Below are positions 5,635-20,797 of a DNA stretch of 64,000 nucleotides, one piece after another. The notes below the pieces were generated by a model that ran no database searches, was not told the DNA's origin, and saw only the letters and a program-made list of their open reading frames with translations. The DNA lies in NCBI GenBank assembly GCA_031291955.1, contig JARLIA010000014.1, forward strand, positions 666 to 64,665, written 5' to 3'. The stretch comes from Minisyncoccota bacterium. GTDB taxonomy: Bacteria > Patescibacteriota > Minisyncoccia > Moranbacterales > UBA2206. Numbering within the stretch: position 1 is the stretch's first letter; every line of letters starts with the position of its first letter. The position numbers and the translations under genes are program-made.

Positions 5635-5678
5635 TTCTGGATTTACGATCCTGGATGCAATCGACATTTTTAAAAAGT

Positions 5679-6461: not shown

Positions 6462-7421
6462 TTATTTATTGCTGTTGTTAGGAGTGGTAGTTTCCGCAGC
6501 CAAGTTACTGCCGACAATGATTAAAACATCGGCGTTGGCCGGCTGGACTTCACCAGCCGGGAGATTTTGAACTTGTCCACCGACCGCTTGAGCAATTCGG
6601 CTCACAAGAGCGGAATCTTTCTGGGTCAGATCAACGACGAGAGTGTTAGTGTAATTGCCTTTGGCGTCGCCCGTGCCAATGACGGCTACGCCGGTGAGAC
6701 TGTTGAGGTTAGCCCGGGTATTACTCGTTCCCGCCACATTAGAGCCTTTTTCAATTATCACCTTTAAAGGGTTTATTGTGGCATTGCTGCTATCGGCAGC
6801 AGGAGTGGAATCGGTTTGTATTTGCATTGGGGATGATGGTGCCGGGTTTGCGGCTGAATTGGCTTGAATCGCCAGATTGCTTCCTGGTGAGTTTTGAGCA
6901 GCAGACTGATCAGCTGAGACAGTTTGACCGCTACTACTATTTTGATCGGCAAAAAGCGGGGCCACGTTCACGATCTTGTTGATGCTTGAACGATAGAGGA
7001 TGGCGACTTTGGCGTTGGCGTAAATCAGGATCTTGTCGCCATTCTCCGCGTTTTTGAAAAAAACCTGATTGCCGAGTTTGCTCTTGTCAGAGACAGTAGC
7101 AAGGGTAGGATTTTCTCCTTGCGGGAGAATCATGAGCTTCCCTACTTGAATCACCACCGACTGGGATTTTGCCTGGGTTAAGGCAACAGAACTGGGAATT
7201 TTTTTAAGAACTTTGTATTGCCGGTAATAATACGCGGCGGTGGCAATGAGACCGAGAAAAACCAGCCAGAATAATATTTTCGAAATTCTCCACCGCGAAA
7301 ATATTCTTGAAATTTTTCTTTTTTCTTTTCTGGTGAAAGCAGGCGCGTAATGCAACGCCTCTGAAGCCTGTCTTGCTTCTCTCGCCATGAAACGCTCAAT
7401 TTTTTCCGGATTTCTTTGCAT
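6462..7421 (-). CDS. Membrane-anchored hypothetical protein (paralog A) with low-complexity C-terminal region
   Basis: A basic N-terminus is followed by one TM. The conserved block GKLMILPQGENPTLATV...FFKNAENGDKILIYANAKVAILYRSSINKI is shared with 7439-7948. Confidence 0.5.
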   Translation of the reverse strand: MQRNPEKIERFMAREARQASEALHYAPAFTRKEKRKISRIFSRWRISKILFWLVFLGLIATAAYYYRQYKVLKKIPSSVALTQAKSQSVVIQVGKLMILPQGENPTLATVSDKSKLGNQVFFKNAENGDKILIYANAKVAILYRSSINKIVNVAPLFADQNSSSGQTVSADQSAAQNSPGSNLAIQANSAANPAPSSPMQIQTDSTPAADSSNATINPLKVIIEKGSNVAGTSNTRANLNSLTGVAVIGTGDAKGNYTNTLVVDLTQKDSALVSRIAQAVGGQVQNLPAGEVQPANADVLIIVGSNLAAETTTPNNSNK

Positions 7422-7438
7422 ATGGTTTTGTGGATTAT

Positions 7439-7948
7439 TTATTTGTTCCCTGCTTTGGAAGCAGTTGGAGTTGCGGGCGAGTTTTGAGAAGATGATGGAT
7501 TATTCTGGTCCATGATAAACGGAGCTTCTTTGATTATTTTGTTGATATTGGGCCGATAAAGAATCGCCACTTGAGCTTTGACGTAAATCAAAATTTTATC
7601 GCCATTGGCAGCATTTTGAAAAAAATCTTGGCCCTTCAGCTTGGTGATGTCGTTCACGGTGGCAATAGTTGGAGTTTCCCCTTGTGGAAGCTCAATCAGT
7701 TTTCCCGCTTGAGCAACAGGATCGGCTTTCGCTTTTTGGTATTGGTGATAGAAATATATAGCAACGCCGAGGATGATTACTATCACGAGTCCCCGCAAAA
7801 TTCTGGGAATTCTCTTTCCTCGAGTAATTTTGGTAAATTTTTGTCTTTCTGGTTGCTTCGACGGACGCGCCACAGAAACTTCTTCTGTAATCACCTCGGC
7901 CATATTTCTGTTTTTCTTGACCATGGACATTTCGATGTTGTCTGGCAT
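7439..7948 (-). CDS. Membrane-anchored hypothetical protein (paralog B)
   Basis: It has the same architecture and the same block, GKLIELPQGETPTIATV...FFQNAANGDKILIYVKAQVAILYRPNINKI. Confidence 0.5.
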   Translation of the reverse strand: MPDNIEMSMVKKNRNMAEVITEEVSVARPSKQPERQKFTKITRGKRIPRILRGLVIVIILGVAIYFYHQYQKAKADPVAQAGKLIELPQGETPTIATVNDITKLKGQDFFQNAANGDKILIYVKAQVAILYRPNINKIIKEAPFIMDQNNPSSSQNSPATPTASKAGNK

Positions 7949-8047
7949 AACGATGTCTATAAAAAGTTATTTTTCTCGCTAAACTTATTAATTCTCCAAT
8001 CCGGAAGCCGAAAAAGTTAAGGCGGCCAGACTACAAAATCCCTAATT

Positions 8048-11000
8048 TTACGGAATTTGCTGAAACATCCCTGTCAAATTGTGAAAAACAAATCCAGCCA
8101 ATGAGCCGCCTGCGTAACCATTTGGAATCTCTACCCAACCCAATAAATAATCGTTATAAGGTATCTGTGGGAGTGTTGCCACAGCTTGCGTTGCTTCAAT
8201 GCTCCCTTTGATAATTTGCGGTGAGTGAGTTGGGCTTAGCACTATAGCGACTTTCCGATAACATGTACCAGTGCCTGATCCCGTACACCACGCAAACGGC
8301 ACACCGGCGGCTGTGCAACTAGCGCTACAATCGGTTGTTGTATTTACACCAGTCAGATCCCACCAGTTGTCATGTGCCGTCCAATTATAAAATGTGCCAT
8401 TAAGAACCAGGGTGGCGTTGTTCGAGCTTTTCACGTAACCAGCATTTGTGGCGTTGGTAAGTCCTGCCCCATTGGCATTATCCAGTATGCCGTAGCCTTG
8501 GCTAGCGCCTTCTATCATATTATTCACCATCATACCTGTTTTCCAAGTGCTTGATGGGGGTGTTCCTGGAAAAAAGAGATCAGTTGTAAAACCTGAAACA
8601 TTATTACCTGATATATTAGTTTGTCCTGTAGTGACATCTATCCCATAATCCGCAGTTATACCATTTATTGTTTGACCGATGACTGTATTGCCAGTTATAT
8701 TCACGCCGTATGAAGCACACGTTCCGGTTCCGTTCCCTGTGCAACATGCAAACGGTACACCAGGAGCCGTACACTGTCCGTTACTTGTACTTGTTGCTAT
8801 TCCGCGAGTTCCACTTACATAATTATTTGAAATTTGTGTCCTTGCGTTTGTATTGATTGCATAATTCGTTCCAAGGCACCAATCTAGTAGTGCTATTCCG
8901 TAACCAGAACCGTTTGTAGTCCAGTTTCCGGTAACTACATTATTAACGATTTGTGTCCCAATTCCTGAAAGTACAATTCCTTCTTGTATATTTTCTACGT
9001 GATTTCCGTCCACTATCATATTCACAGAGTTGCGGTGGGAGTTTATAGCTTGCCCGCCATTAAGCGGAGGTAAGGCACCGCTAAACGAACACCCCTTAAT
9101 TGTAGGGTTCCAATCTAATTCATAACCTGCTGATGTAATGCCATTTCTAACGTTTATTCCTTTACTGTTTTCAATAGTTGCCCAATTATTTCCATTACTC
9201 AAGCTATAAGGATAGCCGGCTGGATAAGTTGTATCAGCACAGTTATACACTTCGTTATTTGTCATTAAGCCATGATCAGTCCAGTTAAAATCAAAACCGC
9301 CAACGTCACAATTAGTACTCTTGCTGTCCATAATAATTGGACTGTTAGCATATCGTATTCCAACAGCACTTTGTCTTTGTCCTGATCCTGCGCCTGTGAT
9401 TTTTACATTATCTAGTACAGGATTCTCTATAGGAATAATCCTAGTGAGAGTCATTACATATCCACTTCCCGCACTAATTGTATAATCAGTTCGAAGTCCT
9501 GTTTTTAATGTTATCGTGTTATTTCCAACAGATGCAATTGAGGACAGTTCGCTTGTTACATAATTTCCAGTTCCACAACCACCCCATGGCTGAGTGGATA
9601 TAATTTCCAGCATGTCACCAGGGGCAAATCCGGTTGAATTTGCAACATTAAGCGTTAGCGTTGTTGTAGGCACAAACGTATTAGTTACATCCAAAGGGCC
9701 GGTGACTGTGGTTGTCGTGGTTGTAACTGTGCCTGATATCATTAAAGCTGTATAAGGTGGGCCGCATGTACCAGCATGATAACCCGTGCAGCATCCATAA
9801 GGAGCGGCGGCGGCTGTACATGCGTTATTGCCTGTAGAAATCAAATTTACACAGTCAAGAGCCAGGTCTTTAATAGTTAAATTATTGATATTTGTATAAA
9901 CTATATACTCATTATCTTTGTAAGTTTTTGATACATCGCCTAAAAGTGTGCCTCCAACATTTACTAATGAATTACCGGCTGCTTGAAGAGCTGCAAAATC
10001 ATCAGTAGAATCATCTCCCTTCGCTCCAAACCACTCTGGATAGACCGTCCCGCCATTGCTGAACGTCACGGTTCCCGTCCCTGCAAATATCTGGTAACGT
10101 CCAGCGGTTGGTATGGACATGCTTAGCGTGTGTCCCGTAGTAGTGATCGTCGCTCCCTGCATTGGCCTTAAATCGCAGGTGAGAGCCAGATCACCCGTAA
10201 GCGTCACGGGCGCGGTCAGATAGACCGTTCCGGCAAAGTTCGCATCGGCTGTAAGTTGGGCCAGGGTGTTGGCGGTTATATACGTACCTCCTATTTTTAC
10301 CGAGCCATCAAATTGCGCATTCCCGTTCACCTCCAATGCCGCTTGGGGATTGGTCGTACCGATTCCCAAGTTTCCTTGGATCGCCACATTGCCGTCGGCC
10401 ATCAGCTGGCTAGCATAGAGCGAACCGAAAGTGGCGCCACCAACCACCGACAATTGAGAACCGGGAGACGTCGTTCCGATTCCTACTTGACCGGAACTGT
10501 TAACCGTCAGTCCTTCCATTCCTCCGCCCGCGCTGATATGGAGCGGATTGAGAAGCGATCCAGTGTTGGTGGTGATGTTCATGAGATATCCTGTTCCGGA
10601 ATTTCCAGTGGTATCTGAGAGACTAAAAAGATCATTCGAGCCAGTACTCGCGCCGAAAGTCAAACCAGCCTTATTGCTTCCCATCGAAAGGGTGGTGTTT
10701 TGAGTGGGATTCCCCAGTTGGCTAAAAGGCAGCGTTCCGGAGAGACTGCCGGCGGTGGTAGCTGTCGTTGCATTGGTTGCATTGGTTGCGGAAGTCGCGC
10801 TGGTGGCTGTCGCGGCGTTGCCGGAAATACTGATGCCGTAAGTGCCGGAGATGAGAGCATTAGCAGTCAGCGTGCCGGAACCGGCCGAAAGAGTTTGTCC
10901 ACTCCCAAGACTAAGAGCCTGATCCAATTTGGACGCGGTGATGGCGCCATTGTTGAGACTTATGGTAACACCGCCGCCGAGGATTGAGTTGCTACCGCCG

Positions 11001-11758
11001 GCAACAGTCAGGCCGGAAGAGCCGGTGATATCGCCCGTCGACTCATTGGCCCATTTATTGGAACTGTTCATAACCAAAACATCGCCCGCGGCCGGGTTGG
11101 AGATATCAGTGTCAGTAAGAGCCGAGAGAGTGGTCACGCCGCCGGAGCCGACTATTTCCGACCAGCCGGTGTTGGTAGCGGTGCCGGAAGTTTTAATGTA
11201 AAGCTTGTCATTGGTCGAATCGATAGCCATATCTCCCACCGACCCGGTCTGGACGCCATTGGGATCGCCAGTGCCCTGATAGACACTGGTGCCATTGACA
11301 GCATCGGCGTTAAAAGCGTAGGCGGCCGCACCGATCCGTTGTCTCGGAGACATCTCAACATCGGTGCCAACAGTGATGCCGGCGTAGTAAGTGTCCTGGG
11401 AAAAATCCACCGTCATCGTGTTGCCGGATCCCGAACCGAGGAGCACCGTAAAATTACCATCTTTGACAGCGACCGCATTGCTGTTAGCAGTAGTGTAATT
11501 GCCTGTCCAGACCGGCGTGCCGCCGGTGGCAGTGGTGTAAATTTTAAACACCATGTCATAATTGCCGTCAGTCGCGATAGCTCCACTGAAAGATTTTAGA
11601 ACACCGAAGTAGGTCAGTTCCTTGTTAATACCGGAAGCGGCTTTCACGTTATGGAAAACAAAAAGACCTCCCAAGAGAATCAGGGAAATCAAAAGATATC
11701 TGAAAAGTTTCGAATTCCGCGGTTTAATTAAGAGAGAGGGTAGGCTTGGGAATTTCAT
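8048..11758 (-). CDS. Giant secreted protein with tail-fibre-like repeats and a pectate-lyase-fold (right-handed beta-helix) depolymerase-like domain
   Basis: It has an N-terminal signal/TM. Tail-fibre-type repeats (VGIGTTSPGSQLSV, LGIGTTNPQAALEV) and the beta-helix signature YPEWFGAKGDDSTDDFAALQAA are present. Three Cys-rich repeats of the form CTA(A/P)GVPFA(C/W)CTG(N/S)GTGTC also occur. Confidence 0.6.
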   Translation of the reverse strand: MKFPSLPSLLIKPRNSKLFRYLLISLILLGGLFVFHNVKAASGINKELTYFGVLKSFSGAIATDGNYDMVFKIYTTATGGTPVWTGNYTTANSNAVAVKDGNFTVLLGSGSGNTMTVDFSQDTYYAGITVGTDVEMSPRQRIGAAAYAFNADAVNGTSVYQGTGDPNGVQTGSVGDMAIDSTNDKLYIKTSGTATNTGWSEIVGSGGVTTLSALTDTDISNPAAGDVLVMNSSNKWANESTGDITGSSGLTVAGGSNSILGGGVTISLNNGAITASKLDQALSLGSGQTLSAGSGTLTANALISGTYGISISGNAATATSATSATNATNATTATTAGSLSGTLPFSQLGNPTQNTTLSMGSNKAGLTFGASTGSNDLFSLSDTTGNSGTGYLMNITTNTGSLLNPLHISAGGGMEGLTVNSSGQVGIGTTSPGSQLSVVGGATFGSLYASQLMADGNVAIQGNLGIGTTNPQAALEVNGNAQFDGSVKIGGTYITANTLAQLTADANFAGTVYLTAPVTLTGDLALTCDLRPMQGATITTTGHTLSMSIPTAGRYQIFAGTGTVTFSNGGTVYPEWFGAKGDDSTDDFAALQAAGNSLVNVGGTLLGDVSKTYKDNEYIVYTNINNLTIKDLALDCVNLISTGNNACTAAAAPYGCCTGYHAGTCGPPYTALMISGTVTTTTTTVTGPLDVTNTFVPTTTLTLNVANSTGFAPGDMLEIISTQPWGGCGTGNYVTSELSSIASVGNNTITLKTGLRTDYTISAGSGYVMTLTRIIPIENPVLDNVKITGAGSGQRQSAVGIRYANSPIIMDSKSTNCDVGGFDFNWTDHGLMTNNEVYNCADTTYPAGYPYSLSNGNNWATIENSKGINVRNGITSAGYELDWNPTIKGCSFSGALPPLNGGQAINSHRNSVNMIVDGNHVENIQEGIVLSGIGTQIVNNVVTGNWTTNGSGYGIALLDWCLGTNYAINTNARTQISNNYVSGTRGIATSTSNGQCTAPGVPFACCTGNGTGTCASYGVNITGNTVIGQTINGITADYGIDVTTGQTNISGNNVSGFTTDLFFPGTPPSSTWKTGMMVNNMIEGASQGYGILDNANGAGLTNATNAGYVKSSNNATLVLNGTFYNWTAHDNWWDLTGVNTTTDCSASCTAAGVPFAWCTGSGTGTCYRKVAIVLSPTHSPQIIKGSIEATQAVATLPQIPYNDYLLGWVEIPNGYAGGSLAGFVFHNLTGMFQQIP

Positions 11759-12134: not shown

Positions 12135-12485
12135 TTAAGCTTGGTACTGCGTAGTCGCCGCGGAAGAGCTCCATGCTGCCAGAGCCGCCACGATGATACC
12201 CAGGATTATGTCATTCCAAAGCGAAGAGACATTAACATAGCCCAAGAAAAACGGAGAGATGATCAACCAGAGACCCAGGATCACATTGATCCAACTTAGC
12301 CAACCGGAGGTGGTCGGCGTGAAGAGCCGGATAAGCGCCAAGATTCCAACGATGATTCCGATAGTGATGTCATTAGAAGCGGCGGAGGTATGAGAGTAAT
12401 TCAAAACATACGGCGCGACAATTAGCCAGATCGCGGCCAAAACGTTGAGTCCGCTGGCGGTCATAGCTTGTTCCCTGTTTGCCAT
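12135..12485 (-). CDS. Small 4-TM membrane protein, SPW-repeat-like
   Basis: It is hydrophobic with two repeats containing the motifs VAPYVLNY and IISPFFLGY. A perfect SD (AAGGAGGTG) lies upstream. Confidence 0.4.
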   Translation of the reverse strand: MANREQAMTASGLNVLAAIWLIVAPYVLNYSHTSAASNDITIGIIVGILALIRLFTPTTSGWLSWINVILGLWLIISPFFLGYVNVSSLWNDIILGIIVAALAAWSSSAATTQYQA

Positions 12486-12607: not shown

Positions 12608-15600
12608 TTATTTCAATCCGGCCATGACCACCACCGTAGCTTTCCTTTCGAACTTCCCCCACTTGACCAGACGGCCTTTCAAGGCCGTGACAACCGCCTT
12701 GATAGCCACGTAATACATAAGCTGGCGATAATAGAAACGCTGGAGCGGCAACCAAAACAGCAGTCGCCAATCTTCTTTGTGTTCAAGGAAAAACGGGATG
12801 GCCGCCGTAACCAGATCGACCAGCAGGAAGAATATATAGAAAATAAGAAATTTCTTGAAAGCGTAAAGCGGAGAAATGTCGCCGGCCGGATGAAAATAGG
12901 TCTGCCAAGCTCCCCAGAAAAGCGTAATGACCATCATTAGATCCATGAGAGGCGAGACGAGAGGAAAGAAAATCTGGAAGATAAAGATATTTGGAATGCC
13001 AAGAAAGCCCAGCGCATTGTATTCCTTTTTCACAGCCAGGTCCTTGTGTTTCCAGGCAGTTTGGAACATCCCATACATCCAACGGAAACGCTGCTTGATA
13101 AAATTTTTAGTGGAATCAGGCGCTTCGGTATAAGCAATGGCTTCGTCGTCATAGGCAACCTGATGCCCCTGACGGATAATGCTAAACGTCAGATCTGCAT
13201 CTTCCGCCAAAGTGTCCTCGGAAAATCCTCCAGCCTCCAAGATAGCGCTTCGCCGCCAAGCACCGACCGCTCCGGGCACCACCGTAATGCAATTAAGCGC
13301 TTCAAAAGCCCGCCGATCCAGGTTTTGACTGGTGATATATTCCAGCGCCTGCCAACGCGTGAGAATATTTATCCGGTTCCCCACCTTGGCGTTGCCAGCC
13401 ACCGCCGCCACTCTCCGGTCCAGAAAGCAGCGCACCAGCTTTTCGATCGTATCCGATCGGAAAACCGTATCCGCGTCGAGAGTCACAATTATTTCCGCTT
13501 TGGTCATCGCGATGCCGAAATTGAGCGCTGATGATTTCCCGCCATTTTCTTTCCTGAAGATTTTGACCCAGCCGTTTTTCCCGAAATTATTTTCTAACAC
13601 CGCCCAAGTGCCGTCCGTTGATCCATCGTCAACCACGATAATATTGAAATTCGGATAAGTCGATCGCAAAATGGAATCAACCGTCTTGACAACAACTTTT
13701 TCTTCATTGTAAGCGGGAATGATGACGCTAACCGAGGGTTTGTAGTGGACGGTTCGGGAAAGTTTCCGCCAAGCACCCCTCCGGGAATGAGTCCACTGGG
13801 CAATCGCCAGAAGTCCGATAAAAATGAACCGAGCCGTTCCCAGAATGATTCCAACCTTAAACATCAGCAGCATAAATTGATTGAATCCGGAAGCGACCTG
13901 GACCGTTATGTCGTTGGCATAAGCGATAGCTCTTTCCTCGAACGTAATTTTCGGCATCACACTGTCTCTCGAAATCCCGAGCAAATCGGAAACCGGGACA
14001 ATCTGAAATCCCGCCGCCCGCAATCCCTCGATTATTTTCGGCAAAGCTTGGACTGTTTCTTCACGGTTGCCGCCGCCGTCATGGAGCAAAACGATGTTTC
14101 CCTGTCCGTTCTTGGCGGCCGTAAGAACCCGATTGACAATCTGAGAAACGCCGGGACGTGTCCAATCAGATGGATCAATATGCATCGAAACGGTGTAATA
14201 TCCAAAATTACTGGAAGACAATGGCTTCACCTGATCGGGCGTGGTCGGTTCAATATCTTCGGCGTAAGGCGGGCGAAAAAGCAAGGTTTTGTGTCCGGTG
14301 ATCGCTTCGATGACCCGCTGGGTGGCGCCTACTTCAAAAACAAACTGGGCGCCGGTTATCTTGGAAATATCTGGATGAGTGTAAGTATGATTGCCAATTT
14401 CATTGCCGTTGACATATTCCTCTCGGACTATATCCGGACTGAAATTGGCGTTGACGCCTATTACGAAAAAGGTGGCCGAAGCATTCTCTTTCTTTAGAAC
14501 GTCCAAGATTTGAGGGGTATATTTATTGTCCGGGCCGTCATCAAAAGTCAAGGCGATTTTTTTACTGCCCGTCCCCCAGCGATTGATTACGTAGGGAGAT
14601 GGGTAGCTCATGATCTGAGTTTTTTTTATGAGTCCCGAAGCGGAATCATAGTTTATTTGGCGCCAACCGCCCTGGGGCGTTTCAGTCACCCGCAAAATCT
14701 CACCCTGACCCTGATAACTGATGTCATAACCATATTGCATATTGGATAACGCTTGGGCGGCGGAAGCGTCCAGATTTTTGTCATTTATAAAATCATTCCA
14801 GACGGTCGGATCTTCCGCTCCGAGCCGCCAAAGAGCGAACCCCGCCGGAGCGCCCGACCGTTCGGCGGCTACCATCTGGTCGTAAACAGAAACACCATCT
14901 AAAAACCAGACATGATGAAGAATATTGTTGGCGTCGGTATAATCAAAAGTCGGATTAAGCGACTGACTGTCGAGATTCACCGCAGCGTTCGCTTTTTTAG
15001 CTTCCTGGATCGCCTGCTCGAAAGTGAGATCAATTCCCGAACCCGAGGGAGCGGGGTTGTCTCCAGACCAGTCATAGCCATAGTTCCCCAGAGAAATAAT
15101 GAATTTTTTGGCTGAAACCTCGGAAAATCTGTTCGCAATTTCCGCCTCAAACCAAGGCTGGGAAGCGATCGGCCCGGGTCCGGTATCATAAACATCATGT
15201 TCGTCATATGCCATCAGGATCAAATAATCGGCGTTCTGACTAAGCGCCTTGTAATTGAATGACGAGTCATCCAGGGGCACATTCATGGTCACCTCCAGTC
15301 CCAGCGGATGGAATTTTTGATAAAGTTCCTGCATGAACAACACCAAATCGGGCTGATCCTGATTTGACACATTCTCAAAATCAATTGAAATTCCGGCAAA
15401 TTTATTCTGCTGGACGTAAGTTAAAAGACTGTCCGCTGTTTTGGTTCGCAAGGCCGGGTTTTCCAACATCGCGGATAGGCGCCCGCCGTCAAAGGCCTGA
15501 GTCTGATTGTTGAAATTATCGATAAGAGGCGTAATGCGCAAGCTGGGACGATTGGCTTGGATATAACCCCAGACATCCGATTGGTAAGACTGGTTGTAAG

Positions 15601-16057
15601 GCGTCACCGTACCCTGGTTGTCGGAAAGATTGAGCCACTCGGGCACCAACTGATCAATACTGCCCAGATTCTGCTTAAGCGACACCAAGCTGTTGTCGTC
15701 CCAGTTGACAAAATAGGCCAATGTTTTGGGTTTTGTTGTGGTCGGATCAACCGGATCCATCGCCTGTCCGACCAGAAGAGCGTTCTGCATAAATGGGATT
15801 TGAAGACCAGGCGCGCCCAAACTGGCCGGGGCGCTCGCGGCCGCAATGCCAGAAGCTGACTGCGGCGCGCTCCGATAAACTCCGGCCGGATCCTGGATAT
15901 CCAGTTTTGGAAGTTTGGGCGGAATAATGACACTAGCCAAAGTGACGCTAAAAACTGTCGCTAAAAAAAGGACGAGTGGAACAAGCGTCCTTTTGGAATA
16001 GCGCCAGCGTCGGTGTTTCTTATCATAAAAAATTGGAGGTTTTTTTTGCGCAGTCAT
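12608..16057 (-). CDS. Multidomain exopolysaccharide enzyme: N-terminal TM, GH18-like domain, NodB/CE4 polysaccharide deacetylase, TM segment, processive GT2 synthase (PgaC/IcaA/NodC-like), and C-terminal TMs
   Basis: The GH18 domain shows FAGISIDFE. The CE4 domain shows TFDDGPD and GNHTYTHP. The GT2 domain shows VIIPAYNEE, VVDDGSTDGT and QRFRWMYG (the QxxRW motif). Confidence 0.7.
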   Translation of the reverse strand: MTAQKKPPIFYDKKHRRWRYSKRTLVPLVLFLATVFSVTLASVIIPPKLPKLDIQDPAGVYRSAPQSASGIAAASAPASLGAPGLQIPFMQNALLVGQAMDPVDPTTTKPKTLAYFVNWDDNSLVSLKQNLGSIDQLVPEWLNLSDNQGTVTPYNQSYQSDVWGYIQANRPSLRITPLIDNFNNQTQAFDGGRLSAMLENPALRTKTADSLLTYVQQNKFAGISIDFENVSNQDQPDLVLFMQELYQKFHPLGLEVTMNVPLDDSSFNYKALSQNADYLILMAYDEHDVYDTGPGPIASQPWFEAEIANRFSEVSAKKFIISLGNYGYDWSGDNPAPSGSGIDLTFEQAIQEAKKANAAVNLDSQSLNPTFDYTDANNILHHVWFLDGVSVYDQMVAAERSGAPAGFALWRLGAEDPTVWNDFINDKNLDASAAQALSNMQYGYDISYQGQGEILRVTETPQGGWRQINYDSASGLIKKTQIMSYPSPYVINRWGTGSKKIALTFDDGPDNKYTPQILDVLKKENASATFFVIGVNANFSPDIVREEYVNGNEIGNHTYTHPDISKITGAQFVFEVGATQRVIEAITGHKTLLFRPPYAEDIEPTTPDQVKPLSSSNFGYYTVSMHIDPSDWTRPGVSQIVNRVLTAAKNGQGNIVLLHDGGGNREETVQALPKIIEGLRAAGFQIVPVSDLLGISRDSVMPKITFEERAIAYANDITVQVASGFNQFMLLMFKVGIILGTARFIFIGLLAIAQWTHSRRGAWRKLSRTVHYKPSVSVIIPAYNEEKVVVKTVDSILRSTYPNFNIIVVDDGSTDGTWAVLENNFGKNGWVKIFRKENGGKSSALNFGIAMTKAEIIVTLDADTVFRSDTIEKLVRCFLDRRVAAVAGNAKVGNRINILTRWQALEYITSQNLDRRAFEALNCITVVPGAVGAWRRSAILEAGGFSEDTLAEDADLTFSIIRQGHQVAYDDEAIAYTEAPDSTKNFIKQRFRWMYGMFQTAWKHKDLAVKKEYNALGFLGIPNIFIFQIFFPLVSPLMDLMMVITLFWGAWQTYFHPAGDISPLYAFKKFLIFYIFFLLVDLVTAAIPFFLEHKEDWRLLFWLPLQRFYYRQLMYYVAIKAVVTALKGRLVKWGKFERKATVVVMAGLK

Positions 16058-16222
16058 TTTTGTTTTTCGGTATAATAGTTATAAAAAATCCTTTTCCAGA
16101 ATATTACAACAATAATACAGCCAGTCTTGCAAAAAATATCCCCCCAATCAGATCAAAGAAAAGAAGCGCTCAAAAGAGCGCTTCTTACGATTACATTCAT
16201 CCTATGATTTTTAATATTTAAT

Positions 16223-17137
16223 TTAATTCCAATAAACCTGATCAGCAGTGATGATCTGTTTCCATGGACCGCTGGGCACTTGAGAGGCCGGGATGAATTG
16301 CCAGTCAGTCCTGTCCTCGTCCGACAGTCCAAGGTAATCGTGAACAGCTGGCGAAACGTCAAGTCCGGCGTGACTGTTAGTTTTGCTGCTTGGAGTAGCA
16401 CTGCCAAAAACATAACTAGAGTCGTTTTCACCGAACGGCCCAACGTCTTCCCACTGGGCGTAAGCGATCTTGCCGCCTTTGGTGATTTTTATCCACTGGT
16501 TCTTGCAAACACTGTCTTGGGAGCCGTATTTTTCCCCGGCCGCCCAAGGCACCACGGACGCTAAGTTTTTCCTATGATTGCCATTGCCGTCGAAATCATT
16601 GTATGGCAGGGCGAAGTAGAAAGGATTTTCTTTGGGTGTAAATCCGGCCGGCAGATAGCCGTTTCTTTTGCCGGGATTATCCACGCCGCCGAAATGAGCT
16701 TGCCAATCATCATCCCAAGCACTGGAAGTATTGGAAATGTCCTTATTATCCGAATCACCCGGCTCTCCCACCCAGAAGTAGGTAGTTGAAATATTCGCGT
16801 GCAGCGGATATGAATTGGCAACGATGGCCGTTTCGGCTGAAGTTGTCTGATCGTTCTGAGACGCCGCACTGGCACCAGGAGCATTGTTCGTTTCTGCCGT
16901 CCCGTTGCTACTAGCCGGCTGGCTATCAGTTTGGCTCGTGTTCGATTTCTTCTTTTTATTTTTTGCTGCTTGCGGTTTTGTTTTTTGCGCCTCCGCTCTT
17001 TGGACATTCCATTTGCCACTGGCGGCCAAAGTGATCGAAGTCGCCCCGGCCAGCACGATCAGCAGGATCGATGCTTTGTAAATAAATTGTTTTTTGTTTT
17101 TTATTTTTATTTTGTCGATCATTTTTTTGATTGACAT
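16223..17137 (-). CDS. Secreted protein with putative DPBB (RlpA/expansin-like) domain, paralog 1
   Basis: It has a signal/TM, a low-complexity linker and a Trp-rich domain: TTYFWVGE...CKNQWIKITKGGKIAYAQWEDVGPF...AGLDVSPAV.DYLGL. Confidence 0.4.
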   Translation of the reverse strand: MSIKKMIDKIKIKNKKQFIYKASILLIVLAGATSITLAASGKWNVQRAEAQKTKPQAAKNKKKKSNTSQTDSQPASSNGTAETNNAPGASAASQNDQTTSAETAIVANSYPLHANISTTYFWVGEPGDSDNKDISNTSSAWDDDWQAHFGGVDNPGKRNGYLPAGFTPKENPFYFALPYNDFDGNGNHRKNLASVVPWAAGEKYGSQDSVCKNQWIKITKGGKIAYAQWEDVGPFGENDSSYVFGSATPSSKTNSHAGLDVSPAVHDYLGLSDEDRTDWQFIPASQVPSGPWKQIITADQVYWN

Positions 17138-17337
17138 CTGTTTTTTTTATTAATGATTAACCCAATTATATTTTGGTGCCGAATATTTTACTATGGAACG
17201 ATAAATCGGTCAACAATCTTCTGATAAAAAGTTATCCACAGGCGATAGACCCTCCAATAAGCCCTACTTTTTCTTTTTGGCATTTTTGGATATTTTTAGA
17301 TGTAGTAAAATTAAAGAAACAGAAAACATTTTTCAAG

Positions 17338-18060
17338 ATGAAATATCTTAACCACAAAAACTTTTTTTCAGTTGTGATTTTCGTAGCGGTCATGACTGCG
17401 TCCGGTGTTTTGGTTTTTTATTCACAAAAACGCGGCCGGTCTCCTCTCCCGCTTCCGGGGATTGTCGGAATCTACTATCCGGTCCACAAAAACATCACCG
17501 TCACCACTTTCTGGGTCGGCGAAAAGGCCGATCGGTCCAACAAGTATATTGCCAACGACCAAAGCGCCTGGGACAATCATTGGCAAGATCATTATGGCGG
17601 TGCGGACAACCCGAACGACCGGAACGGTTATTTTCCGGCCGGATTTACACCCAAGGAAAATCCCTTCTACTTCGCTCTGCCATACAATGATTTAAACGAC
17701 AACGGAACAAGAAGGAGCGACGCGGCCAGTGTCGTCTATTGGTCAGGAAATCAAAACTGGAGCCCCAACCAATCCATGTGCAAGAATCAATGGATTAAAA
17801 TCACTAAAGGCGGCAAGATAGTTTATGCCCAGTGGGAGGACGTCGGGCCTTTTTCTGAAAATGATGCGGCTTATGTTTTCGGCAACGCGATACCAGAGAG
17901 TAAGACTAATAACCATGCCGGGTTGGATGTTTCCCCGGCCGTCGAATCTTATTTAGGCCTCAAGGGAGAAGATAAGATCGATTGGCAGTTTGTAACAGAT
18001 TCTCAGGTGCCCAGCGGTCCCTGGAAACAGATTGTCACCGCTTCGCAAATAAGTTTTTGA
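17338..18060 (+). CDS. Secreted protein with putative DPBB domain, paralog 2 (divergent from 16223-17137)
   Basis: Its domain is highly similar to that of 16223-17137. The probable start is MKYLNHK; the ORF track extends upstream to 17173. Confidence 0.4.
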   Translation: MKYLNHKNFFSVVIFVAVMTASGVLVFYSQKRGRSPLPLPGIVGIYYPVHKNITVTTFWVGEKADRSNKYIANDQSAWDNHWQDHYGGADNPNDRNGYFPAGFTPKENPFYFALPYNDLNDNGTRRSDAASVVYWSGNQNWSPNQSMCKNQWIKITKGGKIVYAQWEDVGPFSENDAAYVFGNAIPESKTNNHAGLDVSPAVESYLGLKGEDKIDWQFVTDSQVPSGPWKQIVTASQISF

Positions 18061-18797: not shown

Positions 18798-19430
18798 TTA
18801 GGATTGATCGAAATCGCGAAGCGTCTTGGCATTGATGGTGTCCGAATTGTGTTTCTGCGAACCCCGGACAGACACATAATCTCCTTTGCCGATGTCGCTG
18901 GCGCGCATACTGTCGCCATTCTTATTGGAAGCATCGACCGAAGAAGTATCCACTGTGTAAGTATGGCCATTGTCAGCTTTTATAGTTATCTGATTGTTAT
19001 CCGTCGATTCGACTTTCCCATAAATGCTCACGTCAGAACCATTATTGTGGTCATTCCAGTTGTGATCCTTTTGATCATTGCGATTGGAATTATCCTTGCC
19101 GTTCCAGTTTTTGTCCTGGTTGCGCTTGTTCTGATTATCGTTGCTATTATTGTTTTGGTTATTCTGCCAATCAGCCGGTTCTTGGCCAGATTTATTGTTA
19201 TTCTGGCTGTTCTGATTCTTATTATTCTGTCCGCCCTGATTCTGGCCGTTTTGCGAACCGGAATTTTGGTTATGATTCTGATTCTGGACAGATTGCGGGT
19301 TAAAAGGCGCTTGATTGCCATCTTGCGGACCACTGGCGCTGGCCAGCCCCGCGCCGGTAAGTGCCAGTGTAGCCGCTAAACTTCCGGCAAGAAAAGCTTT
19401 CGGAGCTATTTTTTTCAACTTGTTTTTCAT
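18798..19430 (-). CDS. Secreted Asn/Gln-rich low-complexity protein with C-terminal beta domain
   Basis: A signal peptide is followed by long NQNN... low complexity. Confidence 0.4.
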   Translation of the reverse strand: MKNKLKKIAPKAFLAGSLAATLALTGAGLASASGPQDGNQAPFNPQSVQNQNHNQNSGSQNGQNQGGQNNKNQNSQNNNKSGQEPADWQNNQNNNSNDNQNKRNQDKNWNGKDNSNRNDQKDHNWNDHNNGSDVSIYGKVESTDNNQITIKADNGHTYTVDTSSVDASNKNGDSMRASDIGKGDYVSVRGSQKHNSDTINAKTLRDFDQS

Positions 19431-19579: not shown

Positions 19580-20797
19580 TTATTGCGCCTTATTTTCCAG
19601 TTTTTCATAAAAGCCATCCGGCAAATCACCGTCCAGCTTGAAAAAACTAACACCGCCCAAATGGAAATTTTTCGCGAGAGTGATTTTGTCGCCAATAGCC
19701 TCGGCATCTTCGAAAGTGACCAGATGCTCGCCATCCGCCGTTTGGAAAGTGAACCTCAATTCCCCGCCGTTCGTCCGGCTTGGAGTCGCTTTGGCCGCCT
19801 TAGCTTCGGCCAGAGCCTGTGAATAGTCCAAACTTTTTAGTTCGGCGTAGTGCCAGCCAGCGGACGTTTTTACAATTTTAAATTCCCAACCATAAGTCGG
19901 GATGCCAAGCGTTAGTTTTTGGGGAGAAATATACCGCAGGGAATATTCAACGACGCTTTTTACCCAAGATGCGTCAGCGTTCGGCGCCGCCGGCAAATCT
20001 TCGGCAATTTCAAAAGTCGCTGCCCGTTCGGTTTGGAGCGTCTGGTCGTAGGCCATGATCTGAACGACGTCGCAATATTTGTTCATAGCCGAAAAATCAT
20101 TAGCCCAACTCATAGCCCGTATTCCGGCAAAACCCGGCGGCGGAGCATCCTGAGTCCGGGCTTCCACGGCGCATTCCAACGTTTTTCCCATCGGCGCGAT
20201 TTTTTGATGAAGCACTTCCAGAAACACGCTGAAATTGTCCCGGTCGGCGATATTTTTTCCTTCATAATCGATATCCACGCCGGCAAAATTATTTTTTGTC
20301 AGCATACTCGCGATAGCGTCGATGTTTTTTTCCGCGAGATTGCTATTTACGAATGTCTGATGCATCGCCGCCGCGTCCGTCCAAAGAATAGTTGGAACGA
20401 TTTTTATATTTTTCCGGCGGATTTGGGAAAAAAGTTCCGGCCAGGGCGCGACGTTTATTTGCGCTTTATCGATCAAGCTTCCATCCGAAGCTACGCCGTA
20501 CGCGAAAGGATAAATCTCGCTGAAATGATTCAAATTGTTTTCAACGGAAGAAACGCCGACCGCCTTGGCCCAATACGTCACCCAGCCGGAAACGACAAAA
20601 GGATTGCTATTATTTTCAGAAGAAACGGCTTTGGTTGGCAACTTCTTGTTCCGACTGGCCGGCACCGGCTTATCTTTTGATAAAGTCAGAGTTGATATTT
20701 TTGAATTAAAAAAGAAAAAAGAAACAACCTCGACCATACCGGACGCCAAAATCATAACCAAAACGACAAGAACAAGATATTTATATTTTCTTTTCAT
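19580..20797 (-). CDS. Secreted glycoside hydrolase family 18-like protein
   Basis: An N-terminal TM/signal is followed by the GH18 catalytic motif FAGVDIDYE. It is similar to the N-terminal domain of 12608-16057. Confidence 0.6.
   Translation of the reverse strand: MKRKYKYLVLVVLVMILASGMVEVVSFFFFNSKISTLTLSKDKPVPASRNKKLPTKAVSSENNSNPFVVSGWVTYWAKAVGVSSVENNLNHFSEIYPFAYGVASDGSLIDKAQINVAPWPELFSQIRRKNIKIVPTILWTDAAAMHQTFVNSNLAEKNIDAIASMLTKNNFAGVDIDYEGKNIADRDNFSVFLEVLHQKIAPMGKTLECAVEARTQDAPPPGFAGIRAMSWANDFSAMNKYCDVVQIMAYDQTLQTERAATFEIAEDLPAAPNADASWVKSVVEYSLRYISPQKLTLGIPTYGWEFKIVKTSAGWHYAELKSLDYSQALAEAKAAKATPSRTNGGELRFTFQTADGEHLVTFEDAEAIGDKITLAKNFHLGGVSFFKLDGDLPDGFYEKLENKAQ

What the first reader, a model, noticed from the sequence alone, without database searches (positions are those of the whole stretch)
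12608..16057. Single 1149-aa polypeptide fusing GH18-like, CE4 deacetylase and processive GT2 synthase domains
An N-terminal TM is followed by an extracellular GH18-type domain (FAGISIDFE) and a NodB/CE4 domain (TFDDGPD, GNHTYTHP). Then come TMs and a cytoplasmic GT2 domain with VVDDGSTDGT and QRFRWMYG, followed by C-terminal TMs. In the PNAG (Pga/Ica) and chitin-oligosaccharide systems these activities are separate proteins. Here synthesis, export-coupled deacetylation and possibly trimming are combined in one membrane enzyme. A free GH18 gene (19580-20797) and two secreted DPBB-like paralogs flank it, forming a compact exopolysaccharide module.
Basis: partly seen in the sequence, partly recalled or inferred. 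Interest (0 to 1): 0.6.

Follow-up and report, generated by a model that had tools for sequence, protein, structure and literature searches.

The report
One-protein sugar-polymer maker, deacetylase, trimmer
A candidate-phylum bacterium encodes one intact 1149-residue membrane protein that joins a polysaccharide synthase to an outward-facing deacetylase and a chitinase-type hydrolase; the architecture is real and apparently unstudied, but it occurs in hundreds of species, so it is not unique to this genome.

Summary
ORF 12608-16057 (-) is one uninterrupted 1149-aa gene. It has significant GH18, CE4 and GT2 domains, and the catalytic residues of all three are essentially invariant in about 200 homologues. 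The hydropathy profile and an AlphaFold model (mean pLDDT 80.8) place GH18 and CE4 outside the membrane. The GT2 domain is inside, with a hyaluronan/cellulose-synthase-like helical bundle.

The interpretation needs correcting in three ways.

- **Not unique:** full-length relatives occur in at least 599 species genomes across many phyla, and on Bacillus mycoides and Deinococcus plasmids.
- **Prior art:** residues 501-1147 align end to end (39% identity) with a Streptomyces "bifunctional polysaccharide deacetylase/GT2" protein, the MatB architecture. MatB is reported to make PNAG. PgaB also already pairs a deacetylase with a hydrolase.
- **Module:** the free GH18 gene is not syntenic in any related locus. 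The two DPBB-like paralogues are real and sit directly upstream in the closest Patescibacteria loci.

It most likely makes a poly-GlcNAc chain, then partly deacetylates and trims it outside the cell. Whether the linkage is beta-1,6 or beta-1,4 is unresolved. I rate it a new variant of a known kind, of moderate interest.

The parts
12608..16057 (-). Whole gene: 1149-aa GH18-CE4-GT2 membrane protein (NCBI MDR3583503.1)
   Evidence: The ORF is intact. Three Pfam domains score above threshold. The exact sequence is in NCBI as one protein. More than 120 full-length homologues were found.
15920..16057 (-). Basic cytoplasmic N-terminus plus signal-anchor helix TM1 (residues 1-46)
   Evidence: Hydropathy peak at residues 22-49. 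The AF2 model has a helix at 16-44. Residues 5-23 hold 9 Lys/Arg.
15728..15919 (-). Poorly conserved, predicted-disordered tether (residues 47-110)
   Evidence: pLDDT is below 50 for residues 59-107. Mean identity to homologues is 19%.
14783..15727 (-). Extracytoplasmic GH18 (beta/alpha)8 domain, YdhD/SleL/5jh8 subgroup (residues 111-425)
   Evidence: Pfam E = 7e-18. Sequence matches in the PDB are 3cz8, 5jh8, 4wiw and 4s3j. Foldseek TM-score to 5jh8 is 0.89. D226-x-E228, M282xYD285 and W410 are invariant in 121 sequences and kept in 76-77 of 78 others.
14573..14740 (-). Small conserved beta-strand domain between GH18 and CE4 (residues 440-495)
   Evidence: The AF2 model has five strands at 446-494 with pLDDT 81-90. 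Mean identity is 54%. There is no Pfam hit.
13958..14572 (-). Extracytoplasmic CE4/NodB deacetylase domain (residues 496-700)
   Evidence: Pfam E = 1e-33. PDB sequence matches are 7y51/7fbw and Bc1960. All five CE4 motifs are present: TFDD506/507, H557xxxH561, R595PPY, D628xxDW and LLH659. All are invariant except Y598, which is Phe in 6 of 78 sequences.
13778..13942 (-). Long helix containing TM2, which returns the chain to the cytoplasm (residues 706-760)
   Evidence: Hydropathy peak at 727-756. The AF2 model has a continuous helix at 706-760. It is followed by the basic stretch HSRRGAWRKLSR.
13043..13750 (-). Cytoplasmic GT2 (GT-A) catalytic domain (residues 770-1005)
   Evidence: Pfam E = 3e-37. 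D811, D861xD863, E952-D953 and Q989RxRW993 are invariant. It is 33% identical to E. coli PgaC. It lies within the 39%-identity alignment to the Streptomyces MatB-like protein.
12677..13027 (-). C-terminal membrane helices forming the presumed glycan channel (residues 1011-1127)
   Evidence: Hydropathy peaks between 1015 and 1093. AF2 helices at 1011-1055, 1063-1091 and 1099-1127. Foldseek aligns GT2 plus these helices with Chlorella virus hyaluronan synthase over about 466 columns, and with BcsA.
16223..17137 (-). Paralogue A: secreted or anchored DPBB-like protein directly upstream on the same strand. It is a lineage-specific partner.
   Evidence: 100% identical to P4L62_04055 of Candidatus Pacebacteria. 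No Pfam or PDB sequence hit. The AF2 model (pLDDT 83.8) hits DPBB proteins. It holds the same position in L081, L082, L083 and L088.
17335..18060 (+). Paralogue B: divergently transcribed DPBB-like protein
   Evidence: 67% identical to paralogue A over 198 aa. It corresponds to P4L62_04060, 240 aa. A divergent copy is also present in L081, L082 and L088.
16161..16186 (-). Terminator-like hairpin between paralogue A and the fusion gene
   Evidence: The stem has 11 pairs, 6 of them G-C. This is a consensus match only. The number of such sites in the region is no higher than in shuffled sequence.

Best explanation
The gene encodes a self-contained, synthase-dependent exopolysaccharide machine of the Streptomyces MatB type (extracellular CE4 deacetylase, TM helix, cytoplasmic GT2 synthase, C-terminal channel helices). 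An extra extracellular GH18 hydrolase lies between an N-terminal signal anchor and the CE4 domain.

Inferred mechanism:
1. The cytoplasmic GT2 domain polymerises a GlcNAc-based chain from a UDP-sugar. It pushes the chain through its own helical channel, as in BcsA, hyaluronan synthase and PgaC.
2. As the chain emerges, the membrane-proximal CE4 domain removes some N-acetyl groups.
3. The GH18 domain, held on a flexible tether, cuts the chain to release it, size it or clear stalled product. PgaB, PelA and BcsZ play this role in multi-protein systems.

The product is most likely a partly deacetylated poly-GlcNAc. A PNAG-like beta-1,6 linkage is slightly favoured by homology of the synthase, but the linkage is not established. 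In this Patescibacteria lineage one or two secreted DPBB-fold proteins encoded directly upstream probably bind or remodel the same glycan.

Shown here: gene integrity, domain identity, intact catalytic residues, predicted topology, the relationship to MatB-like proteins and PgaC, and the distribution. Inferred: substrate, product, order of action and biological role.
For: - **Domains:** three significant domains.
- **Catalytic residues:** those of all three domains are invariant in 121 close homologues. They are kept in 76-78 of 78 distant ones, apart from Tyr598 of the RPPY motif, which is Phe in 6.
- **Constraint on GH18:** it is less conserved than the other two domains but still constrained. 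Mean identity is 49% for GH18, 60% for CE4 and 68% for GT2.
- **MatB-type core:** residues 501-1147 align without large gaps to a 720-aa Streptomyces 'bifunctional polysaccharide deacetylase/GT2' protein, 39% identity, E = 1e-135. MatB has this architecture and is required for PNAG production (PMC5972031).
- **PgaC similarity:** the best NCBIfam model for the GT2 part is PgaC_IcaA, at 172 bits over model positions 35-400 of 407. NodC scores 95 bits and CelA 80 bits. Identity to E. coli PgaC is 33%.
- **Fold:** Foldseek on the AF2 model matches GT2 plus helices to hyaluronan synthase and BcsA, GH18 to 5jh8/SleL/YdhD, and CE4 to Bc1960/7fbw.
- **Self-sufficiency:** no neighbour is conserved across 80 loci from many phyla. 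Bacillus mycoides conjugative plasmids carry the gene alone between IS elements.
- **Hydrolase precedent:** PgaB pairs a hydrolase with a deacetylase (PMC5933820).
- **DPBB partner:** it is syntenic in the Patescibacteria loci of all three close homologues examined. 29 of the top 60 fusion homologues share a contig length with a partner homologue.
Against: - No biochemical data exist for any triple-domain member. None turned up in eight completed literature searches.
- The GT2 part fails the PgaC/IcaA equivalog cutoff, 172 bits against 422.
- As far as I know, all characterised GH18 enzymes cut beta-1,4 bonds next to GlcNAc. The nearest CE4 relatives (PdaB, NodB, PgdA) also act on beta-1,4 substrates. 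This sits awkwardly with a beta-1,6 product.
- Another protein annotated with the CE4-GT2 architecture, IgtG, glycosylates a lasso peptide and was assayed with UDP-glucose (PMC11912497). Architecture alone therefore does not fix the product.
- The Streptomyces comparator is MatB-like by annotation and architecture. I could not confirm that it is the MatB orthologue.
- The GH18 motif keeps only D-x-E of DxxDxDxE.
Confidence: 0.6

Rival explanations
1. The architecture and sequential mechanism are the same, but the polymer is beta-1,4-linked: chitin that is converted to chitosan-like material and trimmed by a conventional GH18 chitinase-type domain.
For: - The GH18 and CE4 domains have nearest relatives that all act on beta-1,4 GlcNAc-containing glycans. 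These are YdhD, SleL and 5jh8 'chitinase' for GH18, and PdaB, NodB and PgdA for CE4.
- Pfam Chitin_synth_2 hits at E = 1.5e-10. NodC scores 95 bits.
- The conserved partner has a DPBB fold. Known DPBB members such as expansins, barwin and cerato-platanin bind beta-1,4 glycans. That is background knowledge; the fold evidence is.
- The MatAB authors themselves noted that MatB's CE4 domain resembles beta-1,4-acting enzymes.
Against: - The GT2 domain is clearly closer to PgaC/IcaA (172 bits) than to NodC (95 bits).
- Together with the CE4 domain it aligns at 39% identity end to end with a MatB-like protein. The product of MatB reacted with an anti-PNAG antibody and was dispersin B-sensitive and chitinase-insensitive.
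Confidence: 0.27
2. The outward-facing GH18 and CE4 domains act mainly on peptidoglycan, of the cell itself or of a host cell to which this epibiont-type bacterium attaches. They would open or modify the wall where the polymer emerges, rather than process the nascent polymer.
For: - The closest GH18 structures include the spore-cortex lytic enzymes SleL/YaaH and YdhD.
- The top CE4 models are the peptidoglycan or cortex deacetylases PdaB, PgdA and PdaA.
- The organism has peptidoglycan machinery nearby: FtsW/RodA, a class A PBP and YceG.
Against: - Covalent linkage of both domains to a processive synthase is conserved in Gram-negative, Gram-positive and CPR lineages with very different walls. 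This argues for a substrate supplied by the synthase itself.
- MatB's CE4 domain is of the same type, in a system tied to an exopolysaccharide.
Confidence: 0.08
3. The GT2 domain does not make a free polymer. It glycosylates a defined acceptor (peptide, lipid or protein) iteratively, like the lasso-peptide glycosyltransferase IgtG.
For: IgtG carries the same 'bifunctional polysaccharide deacetylase/GT2' annotation and is a membrane protein that adds several sugars to one Ser (PMC11912497).
Against: - No RiPP or other acceptor gene is conserved next to the gene in 80 loci.
- The fold resembles channel-forming synthases, and QxxRW and the C-terminal helices are conserved.
- Similarity to IgtG itself was not measured.
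Confidence: 0.04
4. The fusion is an assembly or annotation artefact, or a frameshifted run of separate genes.
For: None was found. The source is a metagenome-assembled genome, which in principle can contain chimeras.
Against: - The ORF is uninterrupted.
- The same colinear architecture appears in more than 120 database proteins and in at least 599 species genomes. These include complete genomes of cultured Deinococcus radiomollis and Dyella lutea and sequenced plasmids.
Confidence: 0.01

Closest known systems
Streptomyces MatB (SCO2962/SLI_3306), bifunctional CE4 deacetylase / GT2 synthase of the matAB locus
   Same: Both have an extracellular NodB-type CE4 domain, one connecting TM helix, a cytoplasmic PgaC-like GT2 domain and C-terminal membrane helices. 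Window residues 501-1147 align end to end with a Streptomyces protein of this architecture at 39% identity. The architecture and the PNAG link are described in PMC5972031 and PMC4391728.
   Different: The window protein has about 450 extra N-terminal extracellular residues: a tether, a GH18 domain and a small beta domain. It has no MatA-like gene in front; DPBB-like genes sit there instead. The comparator used is a MatB-like plasmid-borne homologue, not MatB itself.
E. coli PgaC + PgaB (pgaABCD) and staphylococcal IcaA + IcaB PNAG systems
   Same: Both combine a processive GT2 synthase with D, DxD, ED and QxxRW motifs with an extracytoplasmic CE4 deacetylase. In PgaB a glycoside hydrolase is coupled to the deacetylase. 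The GT2 part is 33% identical to PgaC, and PgaC_IcaA is its best NCBIfam model.
   Different: Those systems use separate polypeptides. The PgaB hydrolase is GH153 and lies C-terminal to CE4, whereas here it is GH18 and N-terminal. Nothing resembles PgaB beyond the TFDDG motif. No homologues of PgaA, PgaD, IcaD or IcaC were noticed among the neighbouring genes, though I ran no specific search for them. The score is far below the equivalog cutoff.
YdhD / SleL (YaaH) / 5jh8-type GH18 enzymes
   Same: The sequence subgroup and fold match. The reduced catalytic motif G-x-x-x-D-[FY]-E is shared.
   Different: Those are soluble or spore-associated proteins, often with LysM domains, and act on spore-cortex peptidoglycan. 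Here the domain is membrane-tethered and fused to a synthase.
Membrane-integrated processive GT2 synthases with solved structures (Chlorella virus and Xenopus hyaluronan synthase, BcsA)
   Same: The predicted fold of the GT-A domain plus the helical bundle aligns over about 460-520 columns. The catalytic motifs are the same.
   Different: Sequence identity is only 15-20%. Those enzymes have no extracellular enzymatic domains, and their products differ.

Membership tests
GH18 (Pfam PF00704 / CAZy GH18) | Sequence match above the curated threshold | tested here: met
   65.8 bits against a cutoff of 29.6, covering profile positions 2-315 of 317.
GH18 (Pfam PF00704 / CAZy GH18) | (beta/alpha)8 barrel fold | tested here: met
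   In the AF2 model, residues 111-425 have pLDDT mostly 85-97. Foldseek to 5jh8 gives a target-normalised TM-score of 0.89 and rmsd 2.3 Å.
GH18 (Pfam PF00704 / CAZy GH18) | Catalytic DxxDxDxE motif with the acid Glu and the adjacent Asp | tested here: inconclusive
   Only the last D-x-E (D226, E228) is kept, and it is invariant. The first two Asp positions are Ala and Ser. The same reduced motif occurs in YdhD, SleL and 5jh8. From background knowledge, SleL is an active enzyme.
GH18 (Pfam PF00704 / CAZy GH18) | Hydrolysis of a GlcNAc-containing glycan | not testable with these tools
   This needs an enzyme assay.
CE4 / NodB-homology deacetylases | Five motifs: TFDD, H(S/T)xxH, RxPY, DxxD(W/Y), LxH (metal triad, catalytic base and acid) | tested here: met
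   T504FDD507, H557TYTH561, R595PPY598, D628PSDW632 and L657LH659 are present. All are invariant or nearly so in 121 plus 78 sequences. Pfam scores 116 bits against a cutoff of 23.
Processive membrane GT2 synthases (BcsA / HAS / PgaC / chitin synthase class) | D, DxD, (T/A)ED and QxxRW motifs in a GT-A domain | tested here: met
   D811, D861-A-D863, E952-D953 and Q989RFRW993 are all invariant.
Processive membrane GT2 synthases (BcsA / HAS / PgaC / chitin synthase class) | GT domain packed on a transmembrane helical bundle that forms the glycan channel | tested here: met
   This rests on prediction only. AF2 helices lie at 706-760 and 1011-1127. Foldseek alignments to hyaluronan synthase and BcsA cover the GT domain plus the helices.
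PgaC/IcaA PNAG synthase (NCBIfam TIGR03937, equivalog) | Score at or above the curated equivalog cutoff | tested here: not met
   172.2 bits against a cutoff of 422.3, although this is the best-scoring model. Identity to E. coli PgaC is 33% over the GT domain only.
PgaC/IcaA PNAG synthase (NCBIfam TIGR03937, equivalog) | Product is beta-1,6-linked poly-GlcNAc | not testable with these tools
   This needs product analysis: dispersin B or chitinase sensitivity, or NMR.
MatB-type bifunctional CE4-GT2 proteins | Colinear CE4 - TM - GT2 - C-terminal TM architecture with end-to-end homology | tested here: met
   39% identity over 650 aligned positions, E = 1e-135, to a 720-aa Streptomyces viridifaciens protein annotated as bifunctional polysaccharide deacetylase/GT2.
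MatB-type bifunctional CE4-GT2 proteins | Partner gene matA (membrane protein) immediately upstream and translationally coupled | tested here: not met
   The upstream genes in the window are DPBB-like secreted proteins. The PMT_2-like membrane neighbours seen next to the homologues in other phyla have no homologue in the window. MatA itself was not available for comparison.
PgaB (CE4 + GH153) | Homology of the hydrolase domain to GH153 and of the deacetylase to PgaB-N | tested here: not met
   BLASTP of residues 101-714 against E. coli PgaB finds only a 58-residue stretch around TFDDG, E = 0.038.
NodC / chitin-oligosaccharide synthase (TIGR04242) | Score at or above the curated cutoff | tested here: not met
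   94.8 bits against a cutoff of 550.

The most novel reading that the evidence does not exclude
The family is a bacterial single-polypeptide chitin/chitosan machine. A PgaC/MatB-related synthase would make beta-1,4 poly-GlcNAc, which the fused CE4 domain converts to chitosan-like polymer and the fused GH18 domain trims. It would be spread by horizontal transfer, including on conjugative plasmids, across at least ten phyla. If the product is instead beta-1,6, the fused domain would be the first GH18 known to act on PNAG. Either outcome would extend what GH18 enzymes or bacterial synthases are known to do.
Probability: 0.3. Interest if true: 0.7.

Novelty: new variant of a known kind. Interest (0 to 1): 0.45.

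Why it matters
Synthase-dependent exopolysaccharide systems (cellulose, PNAG, Pel, alginate) normally spread synthesis, modification and cleavage over several proteins. How these steps are coupled in space is still debated. In this family the three activities are covalently fixed in one chain in a defined order.

- **A minimal model.** The family could serve to study co-synthetic deacetylation and trimming. It is also a portable one-gene cassette for making partly deacetylated GlcNAc polymers.
- **Tractable hosts.** It occurs in cultivable bacteria: Bacillus mycoides plasmids, Deinococcus and Dyella lutea.
- **A route to attachment.** In Patescibacteria, which have tiny genomes and are thought to live attached to other cells, a one-gene adhesive-polymer machine with a conserved DPBB partner is a plausible attachment factor.
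- **An informative conflict.** The synthase looks PNAG-like while GH18 and CE4 look beta-1,4-specific. Resolving this would be informative whichever way it falls.

Tried and rejected
- **PgaB-like ectodomain.** Rejected: there is no similarity beyond the CE4 motif.
- **Free GH18 gene (19580-20797) as part of a conserved module.** Rejected. tblastn against the 85 related loci then held, and later against L088, finds it only as weak hits to the fused GH18 domain itself. The Pfam gene tables of L081-L083 and L088 list no second GH18.
- **Conserved operon partners.** Eighty genome loci were clustered by all-against-all BLASTP. Only a ~490-aa PMT_2-like membrane protein recurs (28 of 80 loci, mainly Acidobacteriota). 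It has no homologue in the window.
- **The DPBB-like paralogues.** Sequence searches against Pfam (E up to 10) and the PDB gave nothing. Only the structure prediction gave a fold.
- **MatA as the missing GH18.** The gene upstream of the Streptomyces MatB-like gene is a Pro/Ala-rich single-pass protein, not GH18. True MatA could not be fetched.
- **Literature.** Searches for the triple fusion found no description (GH18+CE4+GT2; PgaB/PgaC with GH18; deacetylase+GH18+PNAG; Patescibacteria with poly-N-acetylglucosamine; 'bifunctional polysaccharide deacetylase'). The Thauera flocculation paper proved irrelevant.
- **Promoter and terminator scan.** Counts were no higher than in shuffled sequence, apart from one strong hairpin.

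Full report

Yes. Window positions 12608-16057 on the minus strand hold one ATG-to-stop ORF of 1149 codons. Pfam finds three non-overlapping catalytic domains, all well above the curated thresholds:
- Glyco_hydro_18, residues 112-413, E = 7e-18.
- Polysacc_deac_1, residues 496-600, E = 1e-33.
- Several overlapping GT2 models, residues 774-1049, best E = 3e-37.

A frameshift or gene-merging artefact is excluded. More than 120 database proteins of 1028-1383 aa align over 90-100% of the query (97-100% for most) and carry the same Pfam domains. The exact sequence is deposited as a single protein, MDR3583503.1, 'glycosyltransferase [Candidatus Pacebacteria bacterium]', on a 73.3-kb contig. The neighbouring ORF 16223-17137 is 100% identical to P4L62_04055 of the same metagenome-assembled genome.

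**2. Anatomy**

Kyte-Doolittle hydropathy gives helices at about 25-46, 727-753 and three to four between 1015 and 1125. An AlphaFold2 model built on 26 homologues has mean pLDDT 80.8. It gives the following layout:

| Residues | Feature |
|---|---|
| 16-44 | Helix (TM1) |
| 59-107 | Disordered tether, only 19% conserved |
| 111-425 | TIM barrel (GH18) |
| 446-494 | Small five-stranded beta domain, no Pfam match |
| 500-700 | CE4 fold |
| 706-760 | One very long helix containing TM2 |
| 776-1003 | GT-A domain |
| 1011-1055, 1063-1091, 1099-1127 | C-terminal helices |

Residues 5-23 are rich in Lys/Arg, and so are the stretch after TM2 and the C-terminus. The positive-inside rule therefore puts GH18 and CE4 outside and GT2 inside. 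No dedicated topology predictor was available, so this remains a prediction.

Foldseek of the model against the PDB matches each part to the expected class:
- The barrel matches 5jh8 (target-normalised TM-score 0.89), SleL and YdhD.
- The CE4 part matches 7fbw and Bc1960 (0.83-0.90).
- GT2 plus helices match Chlorella virus and Xenopus hyaluronan synthases (about 460-530 aligned columns) and BcsA.

**3. Are all three domains likely to be active?**

In an alignment of the query with its 120 best homologues (48-60% identity), the following are invariant:
- GH18: G222, D226, E228, M282, D285.
- CE4: D506, D507, H557, H561, R595-P-P-Y598, D628, D631, H659.
- GT2: D811, D861, D863, E952, D953, Q989, R990, R992, W993.

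In 77 further full-length proteins from genomes of other phyla (39-51% identity) the same positions are kept in 76-78 of the 78 aligned sequences (window protein included). The one exception is Tyr598, which is Phe in 6.

The GH18 motif is reduced. Only D-x-E of the classical DxxDxDxE remains. The closest solved relatives YdhD, SleL, 5jh8 and 4wiw share exactly this G-x-x-x-D-F-E form. From background knowledge, SleL is an active N-acetylglucosaminidase. GH18 is the least conserved of the three domains (49% mean identity, against 60% for CE4 and 68% for GT2), but it is clearly under constraint.

**4. How common is the fusion?**

It is very common. The 80 best come from:
- Cyanobacteria, Gemmatimonadota, Verrucomicrobiia and Parcubacteria.
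- Many Acidobacteriota.
- Alphaproteobacteria (Rhizomicrobium, Hyphomicrobium, Parvibaculum).
- Gammaproteobacteria (Dyella lutea, Rhodanobacter, Frateuria).
- Deinococcus radiomollis.

A library-wide phmmer search with only the GH18 plus beta module (residues 108-495) found 439 cluster representatives at E <= 1e-30. Among the best 150, 58 carry all three motifs at lengths of 957-1541 aa. The rest show a continuous spread of lengths, which is what contig-end fragments would give. This GH18 subtype is therefore essentially specific to the fusion.

tblastn against plasmids found full-length copies in two cultivable organisms:
- On Bacillus mycoides conjugative plasmids: 1116 aa, 40% identity over the whole length, flanked by IS6 and IS3 transposases.
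- On a Deinococcus plasmid: 1149 aa, followed by a diguanylate cyclase gene.

**5. Relation to known systems**

- **PgaC.** The GT2 part is 33% identical to E. coli PgaC over 242 residues. Its best NCBIfam model is PgaC_IcaA, at 172 bits over model positions 35-400 of 407. That is far below the equivalog cutoff of 422. NodC scores 95 bits and CelA 80 bits.
- **PgaB.** The ectodomain has nothing in common with PgaB beyond the TFDDG motif.
- **MatB.** This is the informative comparison. [quoted passage not shown] That is the architecture of MatB, described as an extracellular CE4 domain and an intracellular GT2 domain joined by a TM helix. MatB is required for an extracellular material that binds an anti-PNAG antibody and is removed by dispersin B (PMC5972031; PMC4391728).

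The window protein is best described as a MatB-type enzyme with a signal anchor, a tether, a GH18 domain and a small beta domain added at the N-terminus.

Two further points of prior art apply. GT-deacetylase fusions were noted in a 2020 operon survey (PMC7112194). Coupling of a deacetylase with a glycoside hydrolase is established for PgaB (GH153; PMC5933820). I found no paper that describes the three-domain form.

**6. Surroundings**

Across the 80 genome loci no neighbour is generally conserved. The only recurrent one is a ~490-aa polytopic membrane protein with a weak PMT_2 match. It is adjacent in 28 loci, and 8 alphaproteobacterial loci carry a similar protein with no detectable BLASTP similarity to it. 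Neither has a homologue in the window.

The closest Patescibacteria relatives differ from the other phyla in one respect. A secreted or anchored protein of about 290 aa sits directly upstream on the same strand in L081/L082, L083 and L088. In the window, L081/L082 and L088, but not L083, a divergently transcribed paralogue precedes it. Of the 60 best fusion homologues, 29 share their longest-contig length with one of the 120 best homologues of this protein.

The two window paralogues are 67% identical over 198 aa. They have no Pfam or PDB sequence match. They belong to a very large family of hypothetical proteins whose named members are all Patescibacteria. An AlphaFold2 model of the domain (pLDDT 83.8) gives consistent but weak Foldseek hits (E = 2e-4 to 1e-1, TM-score about 0.35). 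The hits are kiwellin, bacterial expansins, barwin, cerato-platanin and designed DPBB proteins. The 'DPBB-like' label is therefore reasonable at fold level.

A strong hairpin at 16186-16161 lies between this gene and the fusion gene, so co-transcription is uncertain.

The free GH18 gene at 19580-20797 belongs to the same broad GH18 subgroup. It is not found near the fusion gene in any related locus. It is also separated from the fusion gene by unrelated genes.

**7. Most likely mechanism (inferred)**

The GT2 domain polymerises a GlcNAc-based chain in the cytoplasm and threads it through its own helical bundle. The CE4 domain hangs directly on the helix that enters the membrane, so it meets the chain first and removes some acetyl groups. 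The GH18 domain, further out and held by a flexible tether to TM1, cuts the chain.

Two observations suggest that the protein is sufficient by itself. The gene travels without conserved partners, and it sits alone between IS elements on plasmids.

The linkage is unresolved. The synthase's relatives point to beta-1,6. The relatives of GH18, CE4 and the DPBB partner all point to beta-1,4 GlcNAc glycans (chitin or peptidoglycan). I give about 0.6 to the general mechanism, with beta-1,6 slightly favoured, and about 0.27 to the beta-1,4 (chitin/chitosan) version. Small weights go to a peptidoglycan-directed ectodomain and to acceptor glycosylation of the IgtG kind (PMC11912497).

**8. Verdict**

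The feature is a real, widespread and, as far as I could find, uncharacterised variant of a known kind of system. It is not unique to this genome or to CPR bacteria. Interest is moderate. The main open question is what polymer is made, and therefore what this GH18 domain cuts. That question is directly testable in cultivable carriers.

Noticed in passing
All members are annotated as hypothetical, none has a Pfam domain, and every named source is Patescibacteria. About 70 positions are invariant among 30 members, including many Trp, Asp and Glu. This is an uncharacterised family in its own right.
   Followed up: partly
L004, L006, L015, L017, L019, L034, L038, L040 and others (28 of 80 loci), directly next to the fusion gene; for example L040 8421-9899: In Acidobacteriota and some other phyla a ~490-aa polytopic membrane protein with a weak PMT_2 (GT-C-like) match is adjacent to the fusion gene. 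Eight alphaproteobacterial loci have a similar protein. Streptomyces MatA is also described as a membrane protein without known domains, encoded just upstream of MatB. Homology between them was not tested.
   Followed up: partly
L086 (Bacillus mycoides plasmid NZ_CP128142.1) 3895-7245: A full-length homologue of 1116 aa (40% identity) sits on conjugative plasmids of several B. mycoides strains, between an IS6 and an IS3 transposase. This suggests the single gene is mobile, and it offers a cultivable system for experiments.
   Followed up: partly
L087 (Deinococcus sp. KNUC1210 plasmid) 3832-8999: The 1149-aa Deinococcus homologue is immediately followed by a sensor diguanylate cyclase gene. This hints at c-di-GMP control in that lineage. 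Nothing comparable is present in the window.
   Followed up: no
window 19580-20797 (-): A separate membrane-anchored GH18 protein of 405 aa has the fuller motif GVDIDYE. It belongs to the same YdhD/5jh8-like subgroup but is only about 21% identical to the fused GH18 domain. It is not syntenic with the fusion gene elsewhere.
   Followed up: yes
window 8048-11758 (-): A 1236-aa ORF gives only weak, sub-threshold hits to right-handed beta-helix and K1-capsule-lyase 'Rider' domains. It could be a polysaccharide depolymerase or an adhesin. It lies about 900 bp downstream of the fusion gene, beyond an SPW-repeat gene.
   Followed up: no
L081 11492-12100, L082 6763-7392, L088 12639-13244: In three loci of close Patescibacteria relatives a VTT/DedA-domain membrane protein lies immediately downstream of the fusion gene. 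In the window that position is taken by a 116-aa SPW-repeat membrane protein (12135-12485).
   Followed up: no
L081 16744-18173 (gene table of the 50.7-kb contig) and L082 12036-13466: A bAvd-like gene and a reverse-transcriptase gene, the hallmark of a diversity-generating retroelement, lie about 5 kb downstream of the homologue in related Patescibacteria contigs.
   Followed up: no
proteins P0249 (1541 aa) and P0266 (1549 aa): Two family representatives have the GH18 module starting at about residue 545. They therefore carry an extra N-terminal region of about 440 residues of unknown nature.
   Followed up: no
window 757-1875 (-), 3331-5634 (+), 28191-29171 (-): FtsW/RodA, a class A penicillin-binding protein (transglycosylase plus transpeptidase) and YceG/MltG are encoded in the window. 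The organism therefore makes peptidoglycan, which is relevant to the rival idea that the ectodomains act on the wall.
   Followed up: no
window 18798-19430 (-): A secreted 210-aa protein has a long Asn/Gln/Asp-rich low-complexity region and a C-terminal DUF5666 match just below threshold. It lies between the DPBB genes and the free GH18 gene.
   Followed up: no
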